Source: Eledone cirrhosa (taxonomy: Eukaryota). Taken from it: a stretch of 64,000 bases of DNA. Where the stretch lies: positions 85,684,001 through 85,748,000 of the forward strand of contig OZ024745.1 in assembly GCA_964016885.1 (NCBI GenBank). Reading direction: 5' to 3'. The notes beneath the pieces were generated by a model. It saw only the letters and a program-made list of their open reading frames with translations, had not been told where the DNA came from and did no database searches. This document shows, in pieces, positions 4,697 to 59,285 of this stretch. The position numbers were made by a program, and so were the translations under genes. Each line of letters opens with the position of its first letter. Positions within the stretch are counted from its first letter, which is position 1.

Positions 4697-7600
4697 CCTC
4701 TCTCTCCCTCTGACCCCCCCCCACTCTTCCCGCTATCTCTCTCGCTCCCCTCTTCTGTCTCCCCCTTTTCTTTTCTTTTCTTCTGTTTCTCTTTCTTTTT
4801 CTCTCGCTGGAGTTATATCTCTATCTCCCTCCCTCACTCTGTCCCTCTCTAACCTCTACCCTATACCTCCCACTGTCTCTCTTTCTCCCCTCCACAGCGA
4901 AATGGACTGCATGCAGGAAAAATGTGAAATCAGGAGTCAGCGAAACTGGTCGAAGATTGAACTAGCGGTTTTGATCAAGGGGTGGACTATGGCTGATGGG
5001 TCTCCACCAAGCAAAATCCACCAAGCAAAAAGATGGCGGAGAACCTGAAGAGCCATGGGTTTCTGAGGACCCTGGTACAGATAGAGAGAAAGAGAAAAGA
5101 AATTGAGAAGGCGTATGTCCTCATAGCGCCTCATATGGCGATGCTAAGCTGTGTCCTCAGGGAGGAGAAAACCGAAGGGAGGGATGAGGAGAAGGAGAGG
5201 GAAAAGGAGGAGGAAAGGGAGGGGGGAAAAGAAAGGGAGGAGAGCACAAGCACGGACCTGAAAGAAAATGATATACCCTCCGCTACAGGCAGGGAGGGCA
5301 GGCCGGGCAACCAACAAGCTAAGGGCAAAGGTGAAAAGCAAAATCACCTTCCGAAGGAGAACCAAGCGCAGATGGACCAGTGGACAACTGTTCAAAGAAA
5401 GAACAGAAAGCACCGAGACACTGGGAGCAAAAAACCCCAAGTAATGTGCAAGTTTTTCAAGAACGGGACATGCTGGCATGGAGAGACAGGGATGGGATGC
5501 AGATTCGCCCACCCTAGGTCTCAAACGAACTATGCCCATCATACTCGCGCAACATGCCCCAGCCTAAGCCGAAATAAGCCGCTCCAGAAGTATGATGATG
5601 TCGCGCGTGCTACACCAACAAGGAGAAGGCACGCACATGCCGACGAGATACAGATGGCAGCAGCAGATCAGAAAAATTTTTTAGTGATGGCAGAGAAGAT
5701 TGTGGGACAGATGACCTGGCTGCATCGTCTCCAGAGCCAGGGTCATCCACACCAGCACTCGAGACCACCGCAGTTAAGGGACCCAGAGTGGCCGCCGCTG
5801 ACACCAGACCAGGAGTCATACCGACAGCCATTACTGGCACCCCAAAAGTCACACCAGTGCTGCTGCTGAATGTCAGGGGCCTGGTGAAACTCAGCAACAT
5901 GAGTAAAATTTCCTACCTGGGAGACTTAACCATAAGCAATCAAGCACTATGCATGGCACTAACCGAAACGCACCTGCCAAGCAGTATAGCAGATGCAGAA
6001 ATACATATACCGAAATATACTGTATTTCGTTCGGACAGGAAGGAGAGAACTCATGGTGGGGTTGCTCTGTATATCCGTGAAGATGTCACACCAATTGTAC
6101 TGTTGACACATTCAAACTCAGTCTGTGACACACTGATAATACATATGAAGCAACTACAGACGGTAATATGTGTCACATATCGGCCGCCCGATGCCCCCAG
6201 TCATGAGGGTAAATTTGAGGATAGCCTAAGTAGGATAGAAGAGGTCCTTGACAAACTGGACCAGGGTCTCAACATCCTACTGCTGGGAGACTTCAACCTA
6301 CCAAAGGTCAAATGGCCTGAGGGCCACCTCCTCCCTGGAATGACGTCAATAGAACAGTGACAGACGGAATCCCTGCTGGCCCTCACACACAGGCTGTTCA
6401 TGGAGCAAGCAATACTCCTCCCAACAAGAGGCGAAAATGTCCTGGACCTCTGTTTTACAAACAACGAAGTGCCATCCACAATGTAAAGGTGACACCAACA
6501 ATTCTCTCGGATCATAACTCAGTAGAGCTAATGATATGTGGTCCAAGAGAACCAACAGAGACAAAACCACCAAGAAGCTCCGGGACGCTATCCAACCTTA
6601 ACTTCTACAAGGCTAACTGGAAAAAGATTAAGAGTGAAATCCGGAAGCAAACATGGAGTGAAAATACCGCCACACAAGACACTAACACACAATTTCAACA
6701 CTTCATGACAACGATACACACCATATGCAAAAAGTGTGTCCCGGAGAAAGAGGCAAACAGACACAAAAATCTTATTCCCAGAGATAGGAAAATCCTTATG
6801 AGACGTAGAACTAAACTCTCAAACCAGTTGAATAGTCAACAAAACCAAAACAAGAAGGAATCCTATTTGAAACGTGCACTACTTGACACCGAGATTGCAC
6901 TCAAGCTTTCACATGAGAATGAGAGGGCAAGGAAAGAGAACAGGGCCATAGAAAACATTAAAACAAACCCTAAGGCCTTCTTTAAATTTGCAAAAGAAAC
7001 TGCCTCAGTACACTGCAAGATTGGACCACTCTTCCACATGGACGGTTCATTAACCGAAAATCCCCAAGAGATATGTGAAATACTGAACGAACAGTACAAA
7101 AGTGTCTTCACATGTCCACTGAGGCACATGCAAATAACGAAGCCAGAGGAGTTCTTTGATGCCACAACACTACATCAAGAAATGGCAACCATCAACCACA
7201 TAGACATAACGGAGGAGGATGTGGTGTACGCCATTGAAAAATTAGAACAGACTCGGCTGCTGGACCTGATGGATTCCCAGCAGTTCTCCTAAAAATATGT
7301 AAGCGGGCCTTAGCAACTCCACTGAAGATGCTCTTCAGAAGCTCCTTGGCTAGCGGTGTACTACCCAGGGAGCTGAAAGAAGGCACAATATGCCCTATCC
7401 ATAAAGGAGGTAGTAGAGCGGAGGCCAAGAACTATAGGCCAGTCTCCCTGACGTCGCATATCAGTAAGGTCATGGAGCGAGTCGTCAGAAAGAAACTAAT
7501 CACTTTCCTCGAAGAAAATGACCGCCTGACTAGCACGCAACATGGCTTCCGCCCAGGAAGAAGCTGCCTTACACAGCTGCTACATCACTACGACTGGGTA

Positions 7601-8656
7601 CTGAGACAACTGCTAGACAGCTCACATGTAGACGTGATATATCTTGACTTTGCGAAGGCCTTTGACAAGGTCGACCACGGAATGGTATGTCACAAACTAC
7701 ACGGACTCGGCATAACTGGAAAAGTGGGTGAGTGGCTGCATGGCTTCCTAAGGGACAGAAGCCAGGCAGTCGCAGCAAATGGGGCCCTCTCGAGGGAAAC
7801 ACAGATAACAAGTGGGGTGCCTCAGGGGACAGTCCTGGGACCACTACTGTTTTTGGTGGCTCTCTCGGACATGCCCTCTGTGGTGCATGCAACAACATCC
7901 CTCACTAGCTATGCTGATGACACTAAGGTAGCACAGGCAATCAAAAACCCGGCTGACGCTGCCCTCTTACAGCAGGATCTGGATGCCATATACAGATGGG
8001 CGGAAGAAAACAACATGCAGTTTAATGCTGGCAAATTCCAAGCCCTACAATACAAACCTGCAAACACAAACACAAATATAGCGGAACACAGCTACACAGG
8101 ACCAGGAGGGACCGATATCCCCGTGTCAAAATCGATACGAGACCTGGGCATAGACATGAGCGATGATGCATCTTTTTCTTCACACATCATGAAGGTGGCG
8201 ACAGCATGTAGACGACTCGCTGGCTGGATCTTGAGGACTTTCCTTACAAGAGATCGAGACACCATGTTGACACTGTGGAGGACTTTTGTCCTAAGCCGCC
8301 TGGACTACTGCTCCCAGCTGTGGTCACCCCATAGTGTCAAACTAACCACAGAGCTTGAGGCAATCCAGCGAAGCTACACCAAGAGGATTGCCAAGATGAG
8401 GGAGACAAGCTACTGGGAGAGGCTGAAGGAACTGAACTTCTACTCCTTGGAGCGAAGACGGGAGAGATACGCAGTGATCTACATGTGGAAAATCCTGGAG
8501 GGACTAGCACCAAACTTTGGCATTGGGAGCTGGACCAACCGTCGAACAGGACGTCACTGTGTGGTGCCAAAGGTCCCGTCTTCCACATCTAGAATAAGGA
8601 GCAGGTATTGCAATAGCCTGGGATTCAAGGGCCCTCAACTCTTCAACAGGCTGCTT
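4520..8656 (+). mobile_element. CR1/L2-group LINE, near full length, 3' end truncated
   Basis: CT-rich leader, ORF1, then APE-RT ORF2; ends abruptly at an inverted pseudo-LTR fragment at 8657. The 5' boundary is approximate. Confidence 0.85.
5033..5869 (+). CDS. LINE ORF1 protein with a CCCH-type zinc finger (may begin at ATG about 4902 via a frameshift)
   Basis: VMCKFFKNGTCWHGETGMGCRFAHP motif, charged segment, position upstream of and overlapping ORF2. Confidence 0.65.
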   Translation: MAENLKSHGFLRTLVQIERKRKEIEKAYVLIAPHMAMLSCVLREEKTEGRDEEKEREKEEEREGGKEREESTSTDLKENDIPSATGREGRPGNQQAKGKGEKQNHLPKENQAQMDQWTTVQRKNRKHRDTGSKKPQVMCKFFKNGTCWHGETGMGCRFAHPRSQTNYAHHTRATCPSLSRNKPLQKYDDVARATPTRRRHAHADEIQMAAADQKNFLVMAEKIVGQMTWLHRLQSQGHPHQHSRPPQLRDPEWPPLTPDQESYRQPLLAPQKSHQCCC

Positions 8657-8671
8657 CAATCCTCAGAATGA
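5788..8671 (+). pseudogene. LINE ORF2 (AP endonuclease plus reverse transcriptase), disrupted
   Basis: LNVRGL, LTETHL, GDFN and SDHN (APE); NYRPVSLTS, QHGFRPGRS, YLDFAKAFD, GVPQG and YADD (RT); in-frame TGA at 6358 and frameshifts near 6470 and 7245. Confidence 0.93.
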
Positions 8672-21482: not shown

Positions 21483-21665
21483 TATATATATATATATATA
21501 TATATTTTATATATATATATATATTATATATATATGCAAAAGTTCTATTTAAATTGTTGGGATACAACAAGCAAATATTTTTATAACTGATATAAAGCAC
21601 TCGACAAGTATTTGGAGTAAATATACGATATTAACAAATGGAAACTATATTTATAAAACCATATC

Positions 21666-21730
21666 TATTTTATTATACATATTTCAAGGATACCATGTTA
21701 AATTATGGTATGCTTTCATCAGACAAAATA
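21666..21730 (-). ncRNA. Minimal hammerhead, family A
   Basis: Minus strand: tattttgt-CTGATGA-aagcataccat..atggtatcctt-GAAA-tatgta-TA-ataaaata. Confidence 0.82.
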
Positions 21731-23230
21731 CAATATATACCAGTTTTATAAATAAATATTGACGTACCCTTTCAAAATGCAACCGTTACTTCTGGAAAAC
21801 ATCAGGGATAGTGGATTTGTTTATTTTAGTAAGTCGTTGTGTTAAGGAGAAGGAAAAAGATGGAGAGAGAGAAAACCGACAGAGAGAAAAGTGGAGAAAT
21901 AAAGGGAGAGATAGAGAAAGAAAAAGAAGAAAGAAAAAAGAAAAAAAGAAAACAGAGGAAAACAAGAGAGAGATATCAAAACACCAGACAGAGAGAAAAA
22001 ATCAAGAGAGAGAAATGTAGAGATAGAGAGAGGGGGAGAGGACGAAAACCTTAAGTCATGTCATATTAAGCTAAGTTAACAATTAAGATGAAATGAATAA
22101 ATAAAATTAGAAATATTAATATTTATGAATGGAATATACATATATAATATGAGAAATTAATCATTATTTAACTATGATTAGATATTTAGTTTAAAAATTG
22201 AGATCAATAAATTAAAAATTGGAATTTAAACATTACGAAATATATATATTGCTAGAGAAATTACCTATCATATAACACATACATACACGCAAAAATACAC
22301 ATAAATATATATATACACACACTCAGAAAATACACATTATATCTACTCCCGTATATAATATATACATACAAAGCATAAATGATTTTTTTATTAATGTTAT
22401 ACATCCCTAAAATGTTTAATATATATATATAAATATATAGGATTAGCTTTCATGCATTTATGGCTGTTAAATTATGCCTATCTGCAATCAAAATTGTATG
22501 GGTACACATATACATGTACACACACAATTCTTACATATACATATATGAACATGTGTGTGCATCCTCACCCAATTGGTAGATACGCGTCACTCATGCATAT
22601 ATACAGACAGACATATATTCATAAAAATGCATATAACACATGTATATGTATGTTAATACACACATATACATACATACTTGTATAGAGATAAGTATACATC
22701 AATATATTACATAGTATAATTGAGTACATAAAATACAAAAGGATTATATTTTGGAAATATAATTATATCAATATAACTTAAAAACAAAAGAATTCTACAA
22801 TATTAAAATATTAAAATATTTTAAAATATTATAGAATATTTTAAGTTAAAATAATATGTTTAATAGATTTAGCATAGAAATTTATCTTACGTATATTTTA
22901 CTCAAGATATTGAAAGGATAAACATTCGAAAATTATGAGAAGCTATCAGAATAAAAACAAACCTAATAAAAAATAAATAAAATATAAAAAAATAAATAAT
23001 ATAAAAAATTAAAATATGAAAAATATAAAAAATATAAGAAATAGGAAATATTTTCTCCTTTCAAGAGCTCTCAATATATTTCTCTAGAATAGTTTATTAT
23101 ATTTATATTTATATTTAGGAAGAACATTTATTTATACTTGAGTACTTAACCAAAGAAAATGAAAAAGGTGAAGGAATCTAATGATTTATCACCAGGTTTC
23201 ATATATAACCAAATTACATAATTAATTATA

Positions 23231-23930
23231 CTACATTTTAAATTTATATTTATATTTAAACGTTGATTTCAATCTATGTCTGCAGCAACTGAATAAATTA
23301 TTCCTTAAACTTAGGAATTTTTGGTCTTTAATATAAAGAATATTTTCCTCTATACAAAGATCGCAATTTTCTGAAGAGCAATTAAAAGGAGTAGCTTTTG
23401 AAATAATATTCCAAATCAGCGAATATTCAACATTATCTCGTTTTAGGTCCCATAATAGGCTAGACAGCGAAGTTGAAGATTTTATGTTTGGATCTGTAAA
23501 ATAATTTTTATGATTATTGAAGCGGGATTTAAAATCTGTGAAGGTAGAACCGACATAATTAAATGAATTTAAATTAGTTTTTACATTACAATTATAAACT
23601 ACATTTTTAGCTAAGCAGTTGTTATTTAACGGACAGTTGGATTTATTTCTACAGTTACAATTATTCGATTGAATATTGCTTGGGTTATTATTGGTATTTT
23701 GGTTAGGTTTTAAATTTCTATTATTAATTCTATTAATATTTTGCGCTAAATTTTTGGTAGAAGAGTAAGTTAATTTTATAGTATGTCTATTAAAAATTGA
23801 GTAATATCTATGTGTTCTAGGGGAAGCATTTGTCAAGAGCTTTAAAGAATAGTTTAGCAATAGGGGTTTTGATATTTAGTGAGAAAGGAGGAGCGAACCA
23901 TAGTATATTCCTAGTTCTATTTCTTTTTCC
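23231..23930 (-). pseudogene. PLE linker plus GIY-YIG endonuclease fragment
   Basis: RNILWFAPPFS, NCNCRNKSNCPLNNNCL, VVYNC..NYVGST, NCDLC and CCRH. Confidence 0.9.
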
Positions 23931-24051
23931 TACTCCTTAACACAACGACTTACTAAAATAAACAAATCCACTATCCCTGATGTCTTCCAAATGTACCGGT
24001 TGCATTTTGAAAGGGTACGTCAATATTTATTTATAAAACTGGTATATATTG

Positions 24052-24116
24052 TATTTTGTCTGATGAAAGCATACCATAATTTAACATGGTATCCTTGAAA
24101 TATGTATAATAAAATA
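24052..24116 (+). ncRNA. Minimal hammerhead, family A (inverted arm)
   Basis: Same motif as 21666-21730, with CTGATGA at 24060. Confidence 0.82.
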
Positions 24117-24155
24117 GATATGGTTTTATAATATAGTTTCCATTTGTTAATATCG

Positions 24156-24216
<61 letters not shown>

Positions 24217-26611: not shown

Positions 26612-29600
26612 ATGACCATGCTGTAAAATGGAGGGGTAGAGAGGGCCCTTGAGTCTAGTAAGACATCCTCTCTAGTGCTGGTGGCACAAATAATAGCACC
26701 CAGTCCATGCTGTAAAGTGGCGCTGGTGTTAGGAAGGGCTTCCAACCAGTGTATCAATGCCAAAACGCTTATCAGCACAGCAACAAATAGGAACAACAAC
26801 AAAATATGAAGACGTCGCATCTCAGAGTTGCAACACTTAATGTTGGCACTCTCACAGGTAGATCTGCTGAAATAGCGGAGATGCTGGAGAGAAGGCACGT
26901 GGATGTGTGCTGCGTGCAAGAGGTGAGATGGAGAGGTGCCTCTGCGAGACTAGTCGTAGGCAAACGTCTTAGCTATAAGCTATTCTGGGTAGGTAAGGAT
27001 GATGCTGAGAAATGGATCAATAAGACAATAGAGGTAGTTCGAGTTAGTAATCGAATAATTAAGCTTAGATTAGTTGTAGGTAGGAGACTACTGACAATCA
27101 TCTCGGCCTATGCTCCCCAAGCAGGCCTAGGCAAAGATGAGAAAGACTGCTTTTATGAGCAACTTTTGCAAAGAACCGCAATGACAGAGGACGGAGACAT
27201 CGTTATGCTAGCAGGAGACTTCAATGGTCATGTTGGACAGCTCCAGGATGGTTACACTGGGATACATGATGGGCACGGTTACGGTTCAAGAAATGAAGAA
27301 GGAGTGAGACTTCTTGAATTTTGTGATGCAGGTACATTGACTATATGCAACACAAACTTCCAGAAACCTGCCAATCACCTAATAACCTACAAATCTGGTG
27401 AGCACATAAGCCAGATTGACTTCCTACTAGATAGGCAGCGGGACAGGCAGATAGTGTCTAATACCAAGGCATACCCTGGGGAAGAATGTACCCCACAGCA
27501 TAGGTTAGTTGTTAGCGATATCTCAGTAAGCAAGAGATGGAATGAGACATATAGGAAGGTGTGGAGAAGAAAGGCCTGGAAGCTAAAAGACCTTTCACTA
27601 AAATACAAATTTAGGAAAGCCCTTCAAGATGTATATGACGAAAACGAAAACGATTTAGAGACGTATGACATAGATAGTAACTGGAATTTCTTACGTGACA
27701 ACTTGCTGCAGGCTACTGATGAAACTTGTGGCTGGAGCAGAGCTCCAACCAGACAGGTAGTGACCTGGTGGTGGAACAGCACAGTAGATAAGGCTATTAG
27801 AGACAAAAGACTATCATGGAAGGCTTGCTTGGAAAAAGGGTGGGAGTAGGGAAGAATATACAGCCACTAAGAGAGAAGCTAGACCTCAGGTGTACTTAGC
27901 ACGCAGGGAGGCAGAGAGTAGGAGGTTTGCCAATGTTCTGCGACCGGAAGATCAGAGGCGTGCGGTGTTCCACATTGCAAGGCAATGTGTCAATGCAAAT
28001 CAGGATGTTGTTGGAGATAAATGTGTCCGGGATAATGCCGGTGTACTTAGTGTCACGAATGATAAAAAAAGGAGGCCCGAAATGTCATTATGAGAGACTG
28101 ATGAATGTGGAGAACAAATGGGAGAGAGAGAAATTACCCTTGGTAGATCCGACAGAGGGACCAGCTATTGAGATTGACGAATATAGGGTCCAAGAGGCAA
28201 TTAGGGAAATGAAAAATGGTAAGGCTGCCGGACTATCGGGAATAGTTGCAGAGATGCTGAAGGCATCAGGGGACGTAGGCACTAAACTGGTTGCACGCAT
28301 CATCAATCAGGCTATATTTGGTGGTGTCATACCCAAAGACTGGTGCAGCAGTATTCTCATAAATTGCTACAAAGGTAAAGGGGATTCTTTGGAGAGGAGC
28401 AATTATAGGGGTATAAAACTGATAGATCAGGTTATGAAAGTGGCAGAAAGGATTTTAGCATAACTAATTAGAGAAAGGGTCAAACTAGATGAGATGCAGT
28501 TTGGTTTTGTGCCTGGGAAGAGTACAACAGATGCCCTCTTCTTGGTGAGACAATTGGAAGAGAAGTTCTTAGAGAAAAATAAGCCACTATACTTAGCCTT
28601 TGTTGACCTAGAGAAGGCCTTTGATAGGGTACCCCGATCTGTCATCTGGTGGTCCCTAAGGAAGCTAGGTGTTGAGGAATGGCTTGTGAGGACAGTGCAA
28701 ACTTTGTACAGAGGTACTCTCAGTAAAGTTAGGGTAGGAGTGGAGTTTAGTGAGGAATTCCAGATACAAGTAGGAGTACATCAGGGTTCGGTCCTCAGCC
28801 CGCTCTTGTTCATTATAGTTCTCCAAGCCATAACAGAGGAGTTTAAGACTGGCTGTCCATGGGAACTTCTCTATGCTGACGATCTGGTTCTTATAGCAGA
28901 ATCAGTAGAGGAGCTAGCGAATAAATTCTGGCTATGGAAACAGCAGTTGGATCTAAGAGGACTGAGAGTGAATCTAGCTAAGACAAAAGTGTTGATGAGT
29001 AGAAAAGAGGACAACACCCTGATTCCGTCAGGGAAATGGCCATGTTCGATATGCAGAAAAGGAACAGGCATAAATTCTATAAAATGCACACAATGCAGAT
29101 CTTGGGTACACAAGAGATGTAGCGGGGTAGCAGGCAAACTAACAGGTAGGGAGAAATATGTATGCAGTAGATGTACAGAGAAATTAGACAGTAGAAGTCG
29201 CATTGATAGACACATTTTTCAAATGCAGGAGGGCGCTATAGAAGTGATGGATAGCTTCCGGTACCTAGGAGATCAGATTAGCATGGGAGGAGGGTATTCC
29301 GAGGCCATAGTATCTAGAATAAGGACGGGTTGGAAGAAGTTTAGGGAGCTGCTTCCTCTGTTGACGAAGAAGGGTTTCTCCCTGCGTACGAAAGGCCGCT
29401 TGTATGATGCCTGTGTGAGGAGCGCGATGCTGCATGGTAGTGAGACATGGGCAGCAACTGCAGAGGATATGCGACGGCTGGAGAGAAATGAGGCAAGCAT
29501 GCTCCGTTGGATGTGCAGTGTAAATGTGCGTGAACGACTCAGCATAAATGTGTTGAGAGAGAAACTGTGTCTGAGAGGGATAGAATGTAGTGTACGAGAG

Positions 29601-29875
29601 ATGAGACTGAGGTGGTATGGACATGTGATGCGCATGGAGGATGACCGATGGGTGAATAAGTGCCAGGAATTGCCATTTGAAGGAAGACATGGTAGGTAGA
29701 GGTAGACCACGAAAAACATGGGCGGAGGTAGTGAGAACAGACCTCAGATCATTGAAGCTCACGGTGGAGATGACGAGGGACCGTGACGAGTGGAGAGATG
29801 CTGTGCTGAATAAGACCCGTCCCACCCTTGCAAGCAGGGAAAAGCGGATGTAAAATGATGATGATGATGATGATT
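26612..29875 (+). mobile_element. RTE-clade LINE, near full length
   Basis: Short 5' UTR, a single APE-RT reading frame and a (GAT)n 3' tail at 29856-29874. Confidence 0.9.
26806..29853 (+). pseudogene. RTE ORF (APE plus RT plus Cys-rich finger), disrupted
   Basis: TLNVGTL, VQEVRWRG, SAYAPQ, GDFNGHVG, NYRGIKL, QFGFVPGKST, FVDLEKAFDRV, GVHQGS and YADD; breaks near 27840, 28070, 28461 and 29697. Confidence 0.93.
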
Positions 29876-40326: not shown

Positions 40327-40371
40327 ATATTATAATATAAGATCAAAAGTTGGTTAAAAGAGTTCCAAGTA

Positions 40372-40439
40372 TTTTATTATGCGCATTTCAAAAAAAAAAT
40401 AACATCATGGGATGATATTTGCATTCTCATCAGATAAAA
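40372..40439 (-). ncRNA. Minimal hammerhead, family J
   Basis: Minus strand: ttttat-CTGATGA-gaa..ttt-GAAA-tgcgca-TA-ataaaa. Confidence 0.75.
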
Positions 40440-41399
40440 AATGGAGACATGATATGAAGCTTAAAAAACACTTGCGACCAGTGAAGTGTTAAATCAACAT
40501 ATGAAAAATAAAGTAAATGGATATATGAGATTGGGAAAAAAGAAGGGGGGGGGAGTAAGGAAGAGGAAGAAAGAAAATAAAGGATGACGGGGGAGAAGTA
40601 TCAGAAGGAAGGATGAGAGAGAAGGAAAATGAGTGATAGAGAGAGAGAAATAGCCTTTACAACTGAGACAACATTGTCTCACAGAGAGAAATTAAAAAAC
40701 CGTTGAAAGATAATGGATAATTTCAAAGGAATTTGAAATTAAAAGTTAATGAAGTTTATGAATGGTCATGTTTATGAATAAAGAAAGAGGAATTTATTTA
40801 TTTAAAGTTTATATATTGAAAGGTTTAATACTATGTGCGAAAAAAGAATTTATTAATATGTATTATTAAAATTAAGGATATTAAGGATATAATATGAAAT
40901 AAGGAGAGATTGAATGAATTATGAACTTAGAGGAATTAGTTAGGGTTTAAGTTTGATTTTATGTATTGTAATATGTAAAAGTAAATAATAGGTCTAATGC
41001 GAGTACGGAAGGAGAGAAGAAAGAAGAAAATTTAAGCAAGAAAAAATATCTAACGTCAAAAAGTATATATGTTTACAAAATTTTCTAATGGTAATATTAT
41101 GATATATTAAAAAAGATATAGTTTCTATGGCCAATAATAAAGGAAAATGGAAAAATGGAAAATGCCATAGTGAGTAATAATATGAATTAAGAAGTAATTG
41201 AGAAGTAAAAGTTACAGATTAAAGATTAGAAATTAAAAAAGAAAAAAGGAAGAAAGGAAAAAGAATAAAAAGAAGAAAGATAGGGGACCTCTAACAACAT
41301 AGAATGAGTAAATTGTATAATATAATATACTGATATAAGGTAGAAAGATGGGTATATTTATAAAAATTATAAAAGCCTTTGAGAAAAGAAGATTTTAAA

Positions 41400-42740
41400 C
41401 TAATTAGGTATTGAGATATTAGCTGTATACTTTATGGAAGTTCTATGGGATTTATGCAAACAGAGCGAAAATAAATCCGTACGTCTATTTATTATAGAAT
41501 TAAAATTAGATATAATGGTGAATTTCTCGACTAGGCAGAGATTACATCTTCTGGATAGGGAAGAATTCCGGTAAGGAAAGGCGGTGCAAACCTTTCTCCA
41601 AGAGATGTTATGGTTAATATTTGTGTCTTTTAAGGACCATATGAGTTCCGAGAGTGCCGAGTTAGTTCTTTTAAGTTTGTATTTAAAAGACGATTTGTGA
41701 TTATAAAATCTTGCTTTAAAGGAAGTGGAAGTGGAACCGAAATAGGTAAAAGAATTAGTACCAGTTATAACCTTACATTCATACACTAAGTTTTTTTTAT
41801 CAAGACATTGGTTATTAAGAGGACATTTAGTTCTAACAGGGCAATTACAATTACGATTAGAGAAATTAACATAGTTATTAACAAATGACATAGTATTATT
41901 TATATAAGGAATTGGATTGGAGAATTTATTTATGATAGGAACTATAGTTTCGTGATTTAGATTGGTGTTATGAACATTCATCGAGGTTACGTTTAACGTC
42001 GTATTTAAATTTACTGAATCTAGCCTAGAGTTAACATTGACGTCGGGATTACTATTGCTATTATTATGACGCTCAGTGTTAGATGGATATAATTTATTAT
42101 TTAATATTTTATTATTGTGTTTAGAGATAATGTTAGAGATGTTGGAAGTGGTGGAATAAGAGAATTTGATTGTATGTTTTTTAAAGATCTTACTATAGAT
42201 ATGCGAGGGAGGGAAGCATTTATCTAATGCCCTAAAGTATAGTTTAGGAATATTATTAGTAATAGATAGAGAAAAAGGAGCATTATACCAAATCATATTT
42301 TTGTATCTAGGTCTTTTATTTAAGTTATTGGAATGTTCATAATTAACTATTTTACTATAAGTCCTTCGATGATTGGTTTCTTTGCTGTATTTAATTTTAT
42401 CAGGATAACTGGCTTTGGAAAGCGCATTATTATAGTAATTGGCATTAGCGTCAAAGATAACTTTATTAGAGGATAGAGTTGAGATTCTTTTTTCAATATT
42501 ACTGACTATAGCATTTTTAACGTTAGTGCGGTGGTTAGATTTAAAATTAACATAATTTAGATTCTCATTGTCTTTATGGTGAGGGTAATATAGGCCAGTG
42601 TCAAGATTAAGGGATATATCCAGGAGGTTAGCTAGTTTGACGTTGTTATCAAATTCAATTTTAAGGCTATGGTGCTTAAGTATATCAAGTATATTGTTCT
42701 TAATAATATTAAGGTCAACTAAAGTTACAGTTTAAGACAG
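41400..42740 (-). pseudogene. PLE RT C-terminus plus GIY-YIG endonuclease (open frame, 5'-truncated)
   Basis: LLDISLNL..YYPHHKDN, MIWYNAPFS, NCNCPVRTKCPLNNQCL, LVYEC..YFGST and CNLC. Confidence 0.9.
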
Positions 42741-42878
42741 TAAAAATATATATATATTATATATATTATATATATATATATTATATATATTATATATATA
42801 TATATTATATATATTATATATATATATTATATATATATATTTATATATATATATGTGTAAATATTATATATATATATA

Positions 42879-42952
<74 letters not shown>

Positions 42953-43243
42953 TATATATATATATATATTATATATAAATATTATATATATATATATTAT
43001 ATATATATATTATTTATATATTATATATAAATATATATATTATATATATATATATTATTTATATATTATATATCTATTATATATATATATAACATATATA
43101 TCATATATATTATATATATATTATATATATATTATATATATATTATATATATATATATTATATTTATATATATTATATATATATTATATATATATATATT
43201 ATATATATATTGTATATATTATATATATTATATATATATATAT

Positions 43244-43277
<34 letters not shown>

Positions 43278-43682
43278 ATATAAATATATATATCGTTAAC
43301 TACTTTTCCCATCTTGACGTTATAGTCGCATATATGTTATAGAATGCCGTTAGCTTCTTGCTAAAACAATCTCTATACCTCTCATTTATATGTATACTCG
43401 GATTCTTTTCCTAGAGTGCTTAAACTATCTGTGACTAATCCCGGTTTTTTTCATAAAAACTGTGATAATTATTGCTATTTTGCTAAACTCCTTTGTAGAG
43501 TTTTTTTTCAGAATGTATTTGACTGCTATTTCTTGTAAATAAACATTCACTTCCATCCTGACGTCACTAGCCCCGTTTTTTCCTCATGTGCTTTTCCATA
43601 AATACACATGAAGGCGAACTAGCCAGTTTTAGAATTCCCTTTTTCGGATTATATTACTGTGAGAGCCCTGGTTTTCTGTTGA

Positions 43683-43764
43683 GCTCTGCTGATGAATGAA
43701 ATTCCAACCGTGACCATCTCCACTGAAAGTTTTCATGAAATAGTCTTTTAAGACTATACAGAGC
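43683..43764 (+). ncRNA. Full type I hammerhead, family K, copy 1
   Basis: gctctg-CTGATGA-atgaaa..tttcat-GAAA-tagtct ttta agacta-TA-cagagc. Confidence 0.9.
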
Positions 43765-44313
43765 ATTTGATGTTATTTCAAATTGAAGGATAAGTGTTTC
43801 AAACTTTATTTTATCATGAGTTAAAGGTCTATAGATTTTTCCCTGGATTTTACTAAATTCTGTGGATGAATTTATATCCTGATTCTCTTTTGAGATGAGT
43901 TTGAGTTATTTTTCCTAAATCTTTCGTTAACTACTTTTCCCATCTTGACGTTATAGTCGCATATATGTTATAGAATGCCGTTAGCTTCTTGCTAAAACAA
44001 TCTCTATACCTCTCATTTATATTTATACTCGGATTCTTTTCCTAGAGTGCTTATACTATCTGTGACTAATCCCGGTTTTTTTCATAAAAACTGTGATAAT
44101 TATTGCTATTTTGCTGAACTCCTTTGTAGATTTTTTTTTCAGAATGTATTTGACTGCTATTTCTTGTAAATAAACATTCACTTCCATCCTGACGTCACTA
44201 GCCCCGTTTTTTCCTCATGTGCTTTTTCATAAATACACATGAAGGCGAACTAGCCAGTTTTAGAATTCCCTTTTTCGGATTATATTACTGTGAGAGCCCT
44301 GGTTTTCTGTTGA

Positions 44314-44395
44314 GCTCTGCTGATGAATGAAATTCCAACCGTGACCATCTCCACTGAAAGTTTTCATGAAATAGTCTTTTAAGACTATACAGAGC
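44314..44395 (+). ncRNA. Full type I hammerhead, family K, copy 2
   Basis: Identical motif 631 bp downstream. Confidence 0.9.
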
Positions 44396-44657
44396 ATTTG
44401 ATGTTATTCCAAATTGAAGGATAAGTGTTTCAAACTTTATTTTATCATGAGTTAAAGGTCTATAGATTTTTCCCTGGATTTTACTAAATTCTGTGGATGA
44501 ATTTATATCCTGATTCTCTTTTGAGATGAGTTTGAGTTATTTTTTCTAAATCTTTCGTTAACTACTTTTCCCATCTTGACGTTATAGTCGCATATATGTT
44601 ATAGAATGCCGTTAACTTCTTGCTAAAACAATCTCTATACCTCTCATTTATATAAAT

Positions 44658-44775
<118 letters not shown>

Positions 44776-44837
44776 ACTATTATATATATATTATATATAA
44801 ATATTATATATATATATAATATATATATATATATATC

Positions 44838-44868
<31 letters not shown>

Positions 44869-45200
44869 ATATATATTATATATATATATATATTATATAT
44901 GTATATATTATATATATATATATATATTATATCATAAAACATGTCTATAGAATCACAAGATAAAATATATACTATTTTCTCTCCCAATTAGCATAATTAA
45001 CTATATAAAAAATCGAATAGACCAGGCTATAAGAATGAGGCTTCTATGCAGAAATCTCCGACAAATAACCAAAACTAGCCCTTCGCGTCGGCCGTAGAGG
45101 AATATTTATCGAATATTTCGACAGCGTAATCGCCCAGATACAGTCAACTAAACAGAATTAGGTGTAAAATAAACTAGGAGAAAATAGAATACATTTAAAT

Positions 45201-52623: not shown

Positions 52624-55007
52624 CACCACCACCACCAACTGCGACTCCATATACAAACGCTTTCTGAGCACGTAGATCGTATAGCTCCAATCCTCACCCC
52701 TGACCACCAGGTCCAGGAATTACACAAAGCTATAGATCAGTGTTACCACACCAGAGTCAAATTTGATAAACAGCGCCTTGTACGGAAATACGAATGGACT
52801 GTAAACAAATACTACATTGACAACATCCGCTCCCACAGACGGACCGACTACAACCACACCAGGGGCAACAGCTGTACAACACCCTCCGCTACACCCCCCA
52901 ACATCGATCTACCTACCAACGATGCTTCACACCTCGTTACCGACTTAACCGGTACCCTCACCAACGACGAACTCGAACTTCTGCGCCTCGGACCCAAGTT
53001 CATCATTACACAGCGTCTCGATGATAGACTGAAACTCGACATCGAAACCAACTTCTGTCGGACAGCTTATCAACTGAAATGGCTAACCGCCATCCAAAAC
53101 AACACCGAGATCGATTACAACCCCACAACCCACCCCACACTCCCCACGTATCACCTCGACAACCCACTCCACCCCCACCCACCAACCACGAACTTGACAC
53201 TAAACTACTCAGGTTGAAACATTCTATCTCTAACATCCTTTCCCAACACACACACACACACAATAAACGCAACCTCACCAATGCACAATTTAATACTCTC
53301 ACCAACCTAAGATCCAGGAACCTTGTGTACCTTCCCTCTGACAAGGGAAAAGAATTCTGTGTCATCTCGAGAGAGACCTACAACAACTTAGCTCTCCAAC
53401 ATCTTAATGACCACAGCCTCTACTCGAAAGTCACAGGGACCTCCTCGACTCTAATCGAGGAAGGCATTAACACCATATGGACTAACATCTGTGTCCAACG
53501 AAAACTGCCAAAGAAGGTAAAAAAAAACAACATAATGACTCGAAACAGCAAATTACCCACCTTCTACCACCTGGTCAAAACACATAAACAAGGACCCGAT
53601 TTGAAAATCAGGCCCATTGTCTCTAGCGTGGAGGGCCCACTCTATAAAATATCGTGGCTGCTCTCCACACTACTGAAACCTATTCTACACACACTACCAG
53701 CCCACGTCTGCAGCTCAATGGAAGTCTTGGAGCGACTACACCATCTGGCGCCCAACACCAGAAAGGACAACGGTTATGCCTTCAGTCTTGATGTGGTCTC
53801 CCTTTATACCTCCGTACCAGCATCCCCAGCTGTCGACCTGTTGACCGAACGAGTCCGAGCATCTAACCTACACTGCTTCGGACTCACACACACGGACATC
53901 CACCAACTCCTCTCCTTCGTTGTGGATAATGCACTCTTCAATTTCCTCGGCCACACGTACAAACAAATCTCTGGGCTACCTATGGGCTCTAGTCTGTCCG
54001 GCATACTTGCGATCTCGTACATGGACCACCTGGAACGCAAGGCACTCAATACCTGCCAACCCAACGCCGTCGCCTTCTACTCCAGATACGTTGATGATAT
54101 CCTGATACTCACTTCTTCCCGGGAGATGGCGAATGAAATTCACCAAATCTTCAACGATACTGACCAACACATCGATTTCACCATCGAACACCCGGGAGAA
54201 GACGGGTCACTCGCCCTCCTCGACTTCCGTATCAACATCTCTGAACAAGGAGACATAAACACCACTTTCTACCGCAAAGCAGCGTGCAAGGACCTATTTG
54301 TGCATTATAACTCAGCCCTCCCCAACAACGCCAAGAGAGGCTATGTCCTAAATCAACTGACACGGATCACTAACAGATGCAGCGACCCGATGGGTGGTCT
54401 CACCCATACCACGCAATTCCGTAATCTACTCAGATCTAATGGTTATCCCAAGCGACTGATTAACGGAATTAGAGACCCCAGACCCAGTAGACCGACACCC
54501 ACTAGAAAACTTAATATTAGCAGGTGCTTCTTTAAAATCCCCCACCTGAGTGAATATACCACGAACGCCATCCGCAGGGCCATACGTACGGAGGGACTTG
54601 ACATACATTTGGCCCACACAGGACCTTCGCTGCGAAGATGCCTCTCCAACAAACCCTACGAGGCAGATAGGACTTGTTCCCTCAGCAACTGCCCGATACG
54701 GGGGGCAGATTGCCTACGCACCTATGTCGTATATAAGATTCAATGCGATAAATGTAACAAGTTTTACATAGGTAGCACCATCCGACCCCTACATGTTCGT
54801 ATCAAGGAACATATCAACACCAACGCATCTTCCTTCCGTAAACATATCCTCAAATGCGGAAACCCACAGGGTAGACCCTTGGTCACAGTCCTAGCGACTG
54901 AACGCAGCATCGGATCCTTAAGGATAAAGGAAGCACTTGTTATTAAGAACCTCAGACCCCCACTTAACAACCGGGCTGAGAGAAATGAGCTGACATGGCT
55001 AATTTAA
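52624..55007 (+). CDS. PLE RT plus GIY-YIG polyprotein; 5'-truncated with one frameshift near 53150 (642-codon open frame at 53079-55007)
   Basis: LLRLGPKF, PSDKG, FYHLVKTHK, IRPIVS, SLDVVSLYTSV, GLPMGSSLS, RYVDD, and VVYKIQCDKCNKFYIGST..RIKEH. Confidence 0.93.
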
Positions 55008-56509: not shown

Positions 56510-57095
56510 TATATTATATATATATTATATATATATATATTTTCCTCTGTGTCACTTTTGAGCTGACTTTTGCGATGCTCCCATAGAGCTTTCGGTATGT
56601 TTATCTATAAAAATTTACTAGGAAAATTTTTTTTATATTTGAGAGTTTAAGCAGTCAAATGAAGGAATCTAATGATTTATCGATAGGTTCAATATATTAA
56701 TAGAATTATATATTACATTTTAAATTTATATTTAAACGTTGAGTTGAATCTATGTCTGCAGCAAGTGAATAGATTGCTTCTTATATTTAGGGAATTTTTG
56801 CCTTTTAATATAAAGAATATTTCCTCTATACAAATATCACAATTTTCTGAAGAGGAATTAAAAGGAGTAGCTTTTGAAATAATATTCCAAAGTAACGAAT
56901 ATTTAACGTTCTTTAATTTGAGGTCCCATAATAAGCTTGAGAGAGAAGTTGAAGATTTTTTGTTTAATTGCGTAAAAGAGCTTTTATGGTTATTAAAACG
57001 AGATTTAATATCTGTGGAAGTAGATCCTACATAATTAAATGAATATAAATTATTCTGCTCCTTTATTGTCGAGCGCTTTATATTATATCCGAAAA

Positions 57096-59285
57096 ATGGA
57101 ATTCTTTAAGATCTCTTCTTCTATAAAAGACATACCTTTACCTAGGAATAAAGACTTTATTAAACAATTAATAGAAAAATCAGACTCTTTTATAAGAAGA
57201 ATTAGGTGGCGTGCTTTCCACTTTGATAAATCTGATGTAAATGAGAATGTTTCCAGTCTTGAGAAAATCTTCAAATCTAACCCCCCCCCCCATCAAACTA
57301 CTAATGGATTTTGAAAGTGAAACCATATCTATTATCCAAAGCATCAAATTCAAAAACAACTGCAAAGGCCAGGATTACCTAAGAAATCTCAAAAGTAATA
57401 TTGAAAACTTGGAGAAAACGGAAAAAATTCTAGTCATGTCAGACAAAACCAATAATCTTTACGGAATACAAAAGGACATCTATAACCATCTTATATTAAA
57501 GGAATTAAGGAATAAATACAAAATAACAACTTATGACGACCTTGAAAAATTGAATACAGATGCCTCTTATATAATGCATGAATTAGGTATTGAAAATCGG
57601 ACAGAACCCTTCATGCCAAGGAAACCTAAAATTAATATGAAGGACAATAAAAGGAACTTTGAGACTGAATTACCAGTCAGATTAATTGCACCATCTAAAT
57701 CGGACCTTGGCATACTTAGTAAGAATATTTTAGACAGAATAATACCACAAATTAAAGAATTATCTTATTTAAAATTATGGAAAGGAACTAATGAAGTTAT
57801 CGAATGGTTTAAGGAAATTAAATATAACTATAATAATAAGTTTATTCAATTGGATATTACTAATTATTTCTCATCCATCACTCCTAATCTACTTAACGAA
57901 GCACTAACATATGCATTTAAACATACAGACTTAACTAGTAATGAAATGCACATTATCCTAACGACACGGAAAACATTAATAGAATTTAACAACCAACTCT
58001 GGACTAGAGCAGATAGAAACAATAATTTCGTTATCACTATGGTATCATCCGATTCCGCTCAGGTAACGGATCTTGTGGGCCTCTTTATAAATAATTCTCT
58101 CCATTGAAAAATACCTGAGATGACTGGAGGTTTATATCGTGACGACATGTTTTTACTTATCGAGAATAATAACTGTGAATTAAATAGGAAAAGAAAAGAA
58201 ATTATACCATTTTTTAATTACCTTAATCTAAAAGTAGAAATAGAGAATAACCATAAAATAGTTAATTTTCGAGATGTAACATTAAACCTTAACACATGTC
58301 TTCATTATCCTTTTCACAAACTAAATTAGAACTTAAACTACGTTAATTTTAACTCTAATCACCCCAGATCCGTTAAAAATACTATAGTGAATTCTGTACA
58401 GCAACGCATTTCTAGAATTTCAGCTAATAAGAATATATTTGATGATAAAGCACATTATTACAACGAAGCGTTAGGTAGAGATGGATATAGAAATACAATT
58501 AAATACATTGATAATAATAATATCACAACTAACCATAATCCTAACAATTTTAACAACTATAATAGAAAACCTTACAATAATTCGGAAAACAAAAAAAGAA
58601 ATAGAACTAGGAATATATTATGGTTCGCTCCTCCTTTCTCATTAAATATTAAAACTCCTATTGCTAAACTATTTTTTTTAAACTCTTGACAAATGCTTCC
58701 CTAGACCACATAGATATTACTCAATTTTTAATAGACATATTATAAAATTAACTTATTCATCCACAAAAAATTTAGCGCAGAATATTAATAGAATTAATAA
58801 TAGAAATTTAAAACCTAACCAAAATACCACTAATAACCCCAGCAATATCCAATTTGATAAATGTAACTGTAGAAATAAATCTAATTGTCCGTTAAATAAC
58901 AATTGCTTAGCTAAAAATATAGTATATAATTGTAATGTAATAACTAATTTAAATTCATTTAATTATGTAGGATCTACTTCCACAGATATTAAATCTCGTT
59001 TTAATAACCATAAAAGCTCTTTTACGCATTTAAACAAAAAATCTTCAACTTCTCTATTTAGCTTATTATGGGACCTCAAATTAAAGAACGTTAAATATTC
59101 GTTACTTTGGAATATTATTTCAAAAGCTACTCCTTTTAATTCCTCTTCAGAAAATTGTGATCTTTGTATAGAGGAAATATTATTTATATTAAAAAGCAAA
59201 AAATTCCATAAATGTAAGAAGCAATCTATTCAGTTACTGCAGACATAGATTGAACTCAACGTTTAAATATAAATTTAAAATGTAA
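57096..59285 (+). pseudogene. PLE RT plus GIY-YIG, disrupted
   Basis: SSIKDIPLP, SDKT, RLIAPSK, LDITNYFSSI, GLYRDD, RNILWFAPPFS, CNCRNKSNCPL and YVGST; multiple frameshifts and stops. Confidence 0.92.

What the first reader, a model, noticed from the sequence alone, without database searches (positions are those of the whole stretch)
43293..44651. 631-bp head-to-tail concatemer with one full hammerhead per unit: candidate large retrozyme or circular RNA
Seen: 2.15 near-identical tandem units with no ORF, each holding a canonical HHR with 6-bp stems I, II and III. The array starts and ends mid-unit (circular permutation) inside (TA)n. Known: non-LTR retrozymes are tandem HHR monomers that yield circRNAs, usually a few hundred nt. 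Inference: cleavage after 43758 and 44389 would release a 631-nt monomer able to circularise, and the permuted concatemer suggests rolling reverse transcription of a circle by a PLE RT.
Basis: partly seen in the sequence, partly recalled or inferred. Interest (0 to 1): 0.75.

Follow-up and report, generated by a model that had tools for sequence, protein, structure and literature searches.

The report
One-ended retrozyme riding Hydra Penelope elements
This is one copy of a 631-base non-coding repeat with a hammerhead-ribozyme fold that sits at well over a thousand TA-microsatellite sites in this animal genome with one fixed end just before a small hairpin shared with Hydra-type Penelope jumping genes, so it likely borrows their enzyme to be copied, probably round a self-cut RNA circle that has not yet been detected.

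Summary
Observation confirmed: 2.15 head-to-tail 631-bp units (624/631 identical), no ORF, one type I hammerhead fold per unit, inside (TA)n. It is not a local duplication. Exact-motif counts give 794 young insertion ends and 1,849 ribozyme loops genome-wide, with subfamilies down to about 75% identity. The permutation is not random: 114 of 126 insertions not chosen for their 3' end stop at one site about 260 nt after the cleavage site and run into (TA)n, while 5' ends vary, which fits target-primed reverse transcription. A hairpin (TACTC...GAGTGCT) lies 5-10 nt beyond that site and also follows the first end site of coding Hydra-type Penelope elements. Copying runs through the cleavage site (16 of 16; 179 junctions without an indel), and units within an array share variants. 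This favours a circular monomer template, but uncut multimers are not excluded, and long arrays also grow at DNA level. No RNA data, no cleavage test, no specific partner found. It is a new member of the known animal non-LTR retrozymes. This scan already reported the same class and the hairpin in other families of this genome. Distinctive here: one hairpin, one end, almost no inverted arm (1 of 154).

The parts
43293..44651 (+). Whole insertion, 2.15 tandem units of a 631-bp non-coding retroelement
43293..43758 (+). 5'-truncated first unit (unit positions about 166-631); the variable end of the family
43395..43421 (+). First copy of the TACTC...GAGTGCTT hairpin, inferred start signal for reverse transcription
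43683..43764 (+). Type I hammerhead fold 1: stem I 43683-43688/43759-43764, core 43689-43695, stem II 43696-43701/43731-43736, GAAA 43737-43740, stem III 43740-43745/43752-43757; predicted cut after 43758
43759..44389 (+). Complete monomer between the two predicted cuts (631 nt, 33% GC); predicted circRNA precursor
44014..44025 (+). TA-like patch at unit positions about 256-267 where insertions end; inferred annealing site for the nicked (TA)n primer
44026..44052 (+). Second copy of the hairpin signal, the single copy within the monomer
44314..44395 (+). Type I hammerhead fold 2; predicted cut after 44389
44390..44651 (+). Terminal partial unit (positions 1 to about 262), ending at the family-wide fixed 3' end; it lacks the hairpin
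42746..43292 (.). (TA)n target tract, 5' side
44652..44932 (.). (TA)n target tract, 3' side

Best explanation
The array is one insertion of a dispersed non-coding repeat family with a hammerhead fold, a fixed 3' end in (TA)n and variable 5' ends; its transcript is predicted to self-cleave into a 631-nt monomer that probably circularises, and a Hydra-type Penelope reverse transcriptase likely nicks (TA)n, starts just before a shared hairpin and copies round the circle until it falls off. Shown: family, ends, target, hairpin position, seamless junctions. Inferred: self-cleavage, ligation, the circle, the identity of the enzyme and the role of the hairpin. Some long arrays were then lengthened by DNA-level duplication.
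For: Fixed 3' end with (TA)n in 39 of 40 best full-unit loci and 114 of 126 distinct insertions from four samples not chosen for that end. Genome-wide exact counts: 794 terminal and 264 internal junctions. Of the first 30 terminal-junction loci on C1, 14 stop before the cleavage site, 16 run through it and none stops at it. 179 of 179 cleavage-site junctions have no indel, 169 are exact, and the core is intact in 160 of 165 units. The hairpin sits 5-10 nt beyond the fixed end in young and old subfamilies. It also follows the first end site in 13 of 27 hammerhead-tail rows from 20 coding PLE loci; 13 of the other 14 rows run into (TA)n before it; 23 of 20,000 shuffled units hold the motif anywhere. 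Two of those PLE proteins carry Hydra marks. The terminal partial unit lacks the hairpin, so priming would be internal, and a linear template would lose one unit per generation. Within-array distance 0.42% vs 0.94% between arrays. In 56 arrays shorter than 1.97 units, 12 of 63 private variants are in both passes, and no terminal-specific lineages appear. Length decay is roughly geometric: 7 of 30 exceed one unit; 34, 7 and 2 of 47 arrays have 1, 2 and 3 internal junctions.
Against: No test of cleavage, ligation or expression. The stem II closing pair is non-standard in 18 of 20 aligned copies (A-U in this window), which may slow cleavage (G-C as the usual pair is recalled). In the one PLE studied in vitro, hammerhead cleavage was not needed and uncut RNA was the main substrate (PMC11167929); 8 of 9 Xenopus retrozyme dimers did not cleave (preprint). 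This window's own units share no private variant. 51 of 63 private variants in short arrays are single, and the shared ones could be unsampled subfamily alleles or gene conversion. L039, L050, L054, L152 and L155 show partial sharing that points to DNA-level expansion. Outside the hairpin there is no similarity to any PLE tested. The single inverted arm (L038) reads most simply as twin priming on a linear multimer. No parent-daughter pair was found.
Confidence: 0.6

Rival explanations
1. Same enzyme and internal start, but the template is an uncut linear multimer transcribed from a few long master arrays that are kept long and uniform by DNA-level duplication and conversion; the hammerhead is slow or idle.
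For: PAc uses unprocessed RNA in vitro. Long arrays of 5-12 units exist and show higher-order patterns. The closing pair of stem II is mismatched in most copies. L038 fits twin priming on one long RNA.
Against: Each generation would lose a unit, yet multi-unit arrays occur in young and old subfamilies. Private variants are shared in arrays too short for whole-unit duplication. There are no position-specific lineages. The core is kept while N7 and loop III vary.
Confidence: 0.24
2. Cleaved linear monomers are the template, and the RT jumps from the 5' end of one to the 3' end of the same or another molecule, as R2 RT can (recalled).
For: Template jumps are visible at some 5' ends (L045, L050, L124, L109). 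Three of 154 insertions have a piece that begins at the cleavage site.
Against: No indel at 179 junctions. No pile-up of 5' ends at the cut (0 of 30), and the three cases are also explained by TA microhomology. Arrays are rarely mosaic (91 vs 26).
Confidence: 0.08
3. SINE-like: a LINE or PLE RT primes in a read-through (UA)n tail, so the fixed end is simply inherited.
For: Nearly every insertion ends in (TA)n, and LINE RT frames are present in the window.
Against: It does not explain a conserved hairpin beyond the end that matches Hydra PLE end sites, and it predicts terminal-specific lineages that are not seen.
Confidence: 0.06
4. Local tandem duplication, assembly artefact, satellite, or orphan pLTR of a coding PLE.
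For: Some long arrays did expand as DNA, and PLE fragments are often nearby.
Against: Dispersed over many contigs with one shared end. All PLE coding matches in 178 loci are separated from the element by a TA run. Units differ from each other.
Confidence: 0.02

Closest known systems
Metazoan non-LTR retrozymes (Cervera and de la Pena 2020, PMC7229834: abstract, passages, sections 14 and 17 read; Li, Clavereau and Pollet 2026, bioRxiv 10.64898/2026.07.22.740005: parts 1-3 of 5 read, supplements not seen)
   Same: Non-coding tandem units, one type I hammerhead each, low GC, dimers to multimers, co-occurrence with PLEs, proposed circRNA template copied by a PLE or LINE RT.
   Different: Larger than the 170-400 nt RNAs shown by northern blot, though within the 51-972 bp range of the preprint. 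The text read does not describe a fixed internal 3' end, a (TA)n target or a shared start hairpin. The link to PLEs here is a short signal, not pLTR homology. Expression and circles are shown there, not here.
Hydra-clade Penelope-like elements (Craig et al. 2021, PMC8557442: passages and section 11 read; supplementary alignments not seen)
   Same: (TA)n target, type I hammerhead upstream of a fixed end, 5' truncation, partial tandems; local members share the hairpin.
   Different: No ORF; one end site instead of two; an inverted arm in 1 of 154; hammerhead with full stem III and long conserved loop II rather than a short palindromic stem III; end about 260 nt after the cut rather than 40-140 nt.
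Poseidon PLE of Anolis carolinensis, PAc (Frangieh et al. 2024, PMC11167929: parts 1-2 of 4 read)
   Same: Target-primed reverse transcription starts inside the RNA, downstream of the hammerhead, at AT-rich DNA; genomic ends mark the start sites.
   Different: PAc is autonomous, has two start sites, primes without homology to the target and did not need cleavage. Here there is one site, it is TA-like and so could pair with the target, and the element is non-coding.

Membership tests
Metazoan non-LTR retrozyme | Tandem units each with a complete type I hammerhead | tested here: met
   (160 of 165 cores intact)
Metazoan non-LTR retrozyme | No protein coding | tested here: met
Metazoan non-LTR retrozyme | Low GC, dispersed multi-copy, dimers to multimers | tested here: met
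   33% GC
Metazoan non-LTR retrozyme | No LTR, PBS or PPT | tested here: inconclusive
   Anatomy is tandem with a fixed 3' end and no LTR pair; PBS and PPT were not searched
Metazoan non-LTR retrozyme | Monomer size | tested here: met
   631 bp is inside 51-972 bp but above the 170-400 nt of PMC7229834
Metazoan non-LTR retrozyme | Self-cleavage of the transcript | not testable with these tools
   Fold only; closing pair of stem II is A-U here and mismatched in 18 of 20 aligned copies
Metazoan non-LTR retrozyme | Expression as linear and circular monomer RNA | not testable with these tools
   No RNA holder listed
pLTR of a coding PLE | Unit continuous with an RT-endonuclease ORF | tested here: not met
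   178 loci, every PLE match separated by a TA run; no homology to 39 other PLE loci
Hydra-clade PLE (candidate helpers P0001, P0002) | RW(K)-like and DKT motifs, CxCX5C linker, CxxC and CxH, hammerhead, (TA)n target | tested here: met
   Read by eye: RWR/RWI, DKT/NKT, CxCX5C, CxxC, CxH. No tree was built, and Pfam gave no RT hit
C/D box snoRNA | Conserved boxes and an rRNA guide | tested here: not met
   Rfam E=6.1, 18 bits against a cut-off of 49; the box-C-like letters vary at hammerhead N7

The most novel reading that the evidence does not exclude
A minimal RNA circle that parasitises Hydra-type Penelope RT through one transplanted hairpin: one hairpin gives one start site and one-armed insertions, whereas two-hairpin elements in the same genome give two ends. 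The family is then a natural deletion test that defines the PLE start signal and records rolling reverse transcription in the genome.
Probability: 0.4. Interest if true: 0.65.

Novelty: new member of a known kind. Interest (0 to 1): 0.42.

Why it matters
How animal retrozymes are copied back into DNA is proposed in the papers read but not shown. This family supplies a defined substrate: a 631-nt RNA, a start site mapped to a few bases, a 27-nt candidate signal, a (TA)n target and candidate enzymes with open frames in the same genome. That makes the circle-and-PLE model testable in a tube. The class, and the hairpin, were already seen by this scan in sister families, so the gain here is one more independent family and the one-signal, one-arm contrast.

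Tried and rejected
Rfam: no hammerhead family matched; the weak snoRNA hits are treated as chance. RNA runs: no RNA holder listed. Four unlabelled runs were laid as contigs; the low-depth near-identical pieces in organisms B and C were not used as evidence. A 19-bp match to window 57087-57105 (E=0.033) lies at a PLE inversion junction and was not supported further. An apparent likeness between the last 70 nt of the unit and the distal end of the local Hydra family was not found by a 26-sequence profile and was dropped. Partner search: two protein searches, 39 other PLE loci and three variant patterns gave only more retrozyme subfamilies, so no specific helper is named. A-to-G editing scars: 4 of 15 shared vs 13 of 131 single variants; suggestive at most, no test was run, not claimed. 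Two-armed structure and a second hairpin: 1 of 154, and no second motif match of that form at an end site. Parent-daughter pairs: none in 84 arrays. Target-site duplications: 48-66 bp candidates in 3 of 154 loci, not readable at this locus. The core-integrity count had an indexing error and was redone. The alignment held one mis-addressed row and was redone. L034 was dropped as a near-duplicate of L033; 14 duplicate and 2 run-off loci were dropped. Look-ups of earlier findings by sequence and nearby place gave nothing.

Full report
Observation. The region is a 631-bp tandem: two full periods are 624/631 identical and a third partial follows to about 44651. Both flanks are degenerate (TA)n. Each unit folds into a type I hammerhead with CUGAUGA and GAAA cores, 6-bp stems I and II, a stem III of 6 bp or more and an AUA cleavage triplet ending at 43758 and 44389. 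The strict scan finds only these two in the window, and 0 of 5000 shuffles pass. There is no ORF above 83 codons, also when the unit is read as a circle. The monomer folds better than shuffles (z about -4.1 as a circle on 60 shuffles; -2.9 linear on 20). Rfam has no matching hammerhead model.

A family, not a locus. A search of the own 3.0-Gb genome gave 2067 candidates, of which 40 were scored, at 98-100% identity on many contigs. Exact patterns, each with 0 control matches, give 794 terminal junctions and 264 internal junctions for the young subfamily, 567 cleavage sites of older subfamilies and 1849 loop II motifs. Older copies are about 73-95% identical and keep the unit length and anatomy. 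In 20 aligned hammerheads stems I and III are almost invariant, N7 and loop III vary, and stem II has two pairs with changes on both sides (3 cells; 1 of 500 shuffles, a control that ignores relatedness). The stem II closing pair is non-standard in 18 of 20.

Ends. 39 of the first 40 arrays end at unit position 259-269 and pass into (TA)n. Over 154 distinct insertions, 142 meet that test. Leaving out the 28 chosen for it gives 114 of 126; the 12 misses include an N gap, several copies that appear cut by later insertions, two that end at the site but failed the regular expression, and two that end elsewhere in TA. 5' ends are scattered, 114 of 154 abut TA-rich sequence, a few show template jumps and one has an inverted arm. 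A fixed 3' end with 5' truncation is the established footprint of target-primed reverse transcription.

The signal and the helper. Coding PLEs of two local families (open frames of 615-816 codons in 19 of 20 fetched loci) have a hammerhead and end in (TA)n about 40-50 or 125-140 nt after the cut. P0001 and P0002 show the Hydra marks listed by Craig et al. (RW, DKT or NKT, CxCX5C, CxxC, CxH), read by eye. Just past their first end site lies TACTC-loop-GAGTGCT. The same hairpin lies 5-10 nt past the fixed end of the 631-bp unit in young and old subfamilies; 23 of 20,000 shuffled units contain it anywhere. One version in the coding family occurs 5771 times. Nothing else in the unit resembles the PLEs tested, and no copy is joined to a PLE frame without a TA run between (178 loci). 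The helper is thus inferred at clade level only.

The template. Because the hairpin lies beyond the fixed end, the last partial unit lacks it; if it is required, priming is internal, as shown for PAc (PMC11167929). A cleaved linear monomer would then give inserts of at most about 260 nt ending at the cut. Instead 16 of the 16 sampled insertions that reach the cut run through it, and 179 junctions have no indel. The template is continuous there: a circle or an uncut multimer. For the circle: a linear route loses a unit each generation; lengths decay roughly geometrically (7 of 30 exceed one unit; 264/794 internal junctions per end; 34:7:2 of 47 arrays); within-array distance is 0.42% against 0.94%; alleles found in three or more arrays are in all covering units in 91 of 117 cases; 12 of 63 private variants in arrays too short for whole-unit duplication are in both passes; only 1 terminal-only variant recurs among 52 events, at a CpG. 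Against it: PAc needs no cleavage, 8 of 9 Xenopus dimers did not cleave, conversion or unsampled alleles could explain sharing, L039, L050, L054, L152 and L155 show DNA-level expansion, L038 fits a linear multimer, and this window's units share no private variant. I put the full model at 0.6, the retroelement reading near 0.95 and Hydra involvement near 0.8.

Comparison and novelty. It meets the sequence-level definition of a metazoan non-LTR retrozyme (PMC7229834; bioRxiv 10.64898/2026.07.22.740005); cleavage and circles are untested, and no RNA run was listed. The size is not exceptional. Five literature searches and the four papers read in part did not show a retrozyme with a mapped fixed end or a hairpin shared with Hydra PLEs; supplements of the preprint and of Craig et al. 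were not seen and could hold this. This scan has reported similar families, mostly two-armed, elsewhere in this genome (earlier notes call the host a cephalopod, not checked here), but no look-alike of this sequence. Verdict: real, a new member of a known kind, with useful mechanistic anatomy; interest 0.42.

Noticed in passing
window 40330-42731 (-): 5'-truncated Hydra-type PLE next to the array on the opposite strand, with a long 3' UTR and its own hammerhead (core at 40433, palindromic short stem III) ending in (CA)/(TA)n; unrelated in sequence to the 631-bp unit.
   Followed up: partly
window 21535-24160: Two-armed Hydra-type PLE: the minus arm ends at the distal site, the inverted plus arm (hammerhead at 24060) at the proximal site.
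   Followed up: partly
window 8910, 13239, 13500, 14893, 16485, 17606, 19659, 62568: Further hammerhead-like motifs of at least three other families, most followed closely by (TA)n.
   Followed up: no
window 53028-55007 (+): 659-codon open PLE frame with RT and GIY-YIG Pfam matches, followed by CA-rich repeats.
   Followed up: no
window 5599-8671 and 26791-29699 (+): Broken LINE-like elements with RT matches; the second has a PHD-finger match.
   Followed up: no
window 43702-43730 (loop II): The 29-nt loop II is more conserved across subfamilies than its flanks (1849 exact matches of a 20-letter part); possibly a tertiary contact or protein site, unexplained.
   Followed up: partly
L038 (G000:C3:229397306-229398947): Only inverted copy seen; the inverted arm ends at unit position 566 and the forward arm starts at 567, a twin-priming pattern spanning about 2.6 units.
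   Followed up: partly
L039, L050, L152, L155: Long arrays with alternating or patchy variants, pointing to higher-order duplication after insertion or possibly dimer templates.
   Followed up: partly
L157; L208; G000:C1:132536591-132537291, C1:169484829-169485557: Length variants of the unit: about 599, 642, 681 and 711 bp.
   Followed up: no
L226:5328-6782 (minus-strand count): An unrelated tandem of about 482-488 bp with four hammerhead motifs downstream of a PLE; likely another retrozyme family.
   Followed up: no
L068, L127, L153: Target-site duplications of 48-66 bp readable where the TA tract is interrupted.
   Followed up: no
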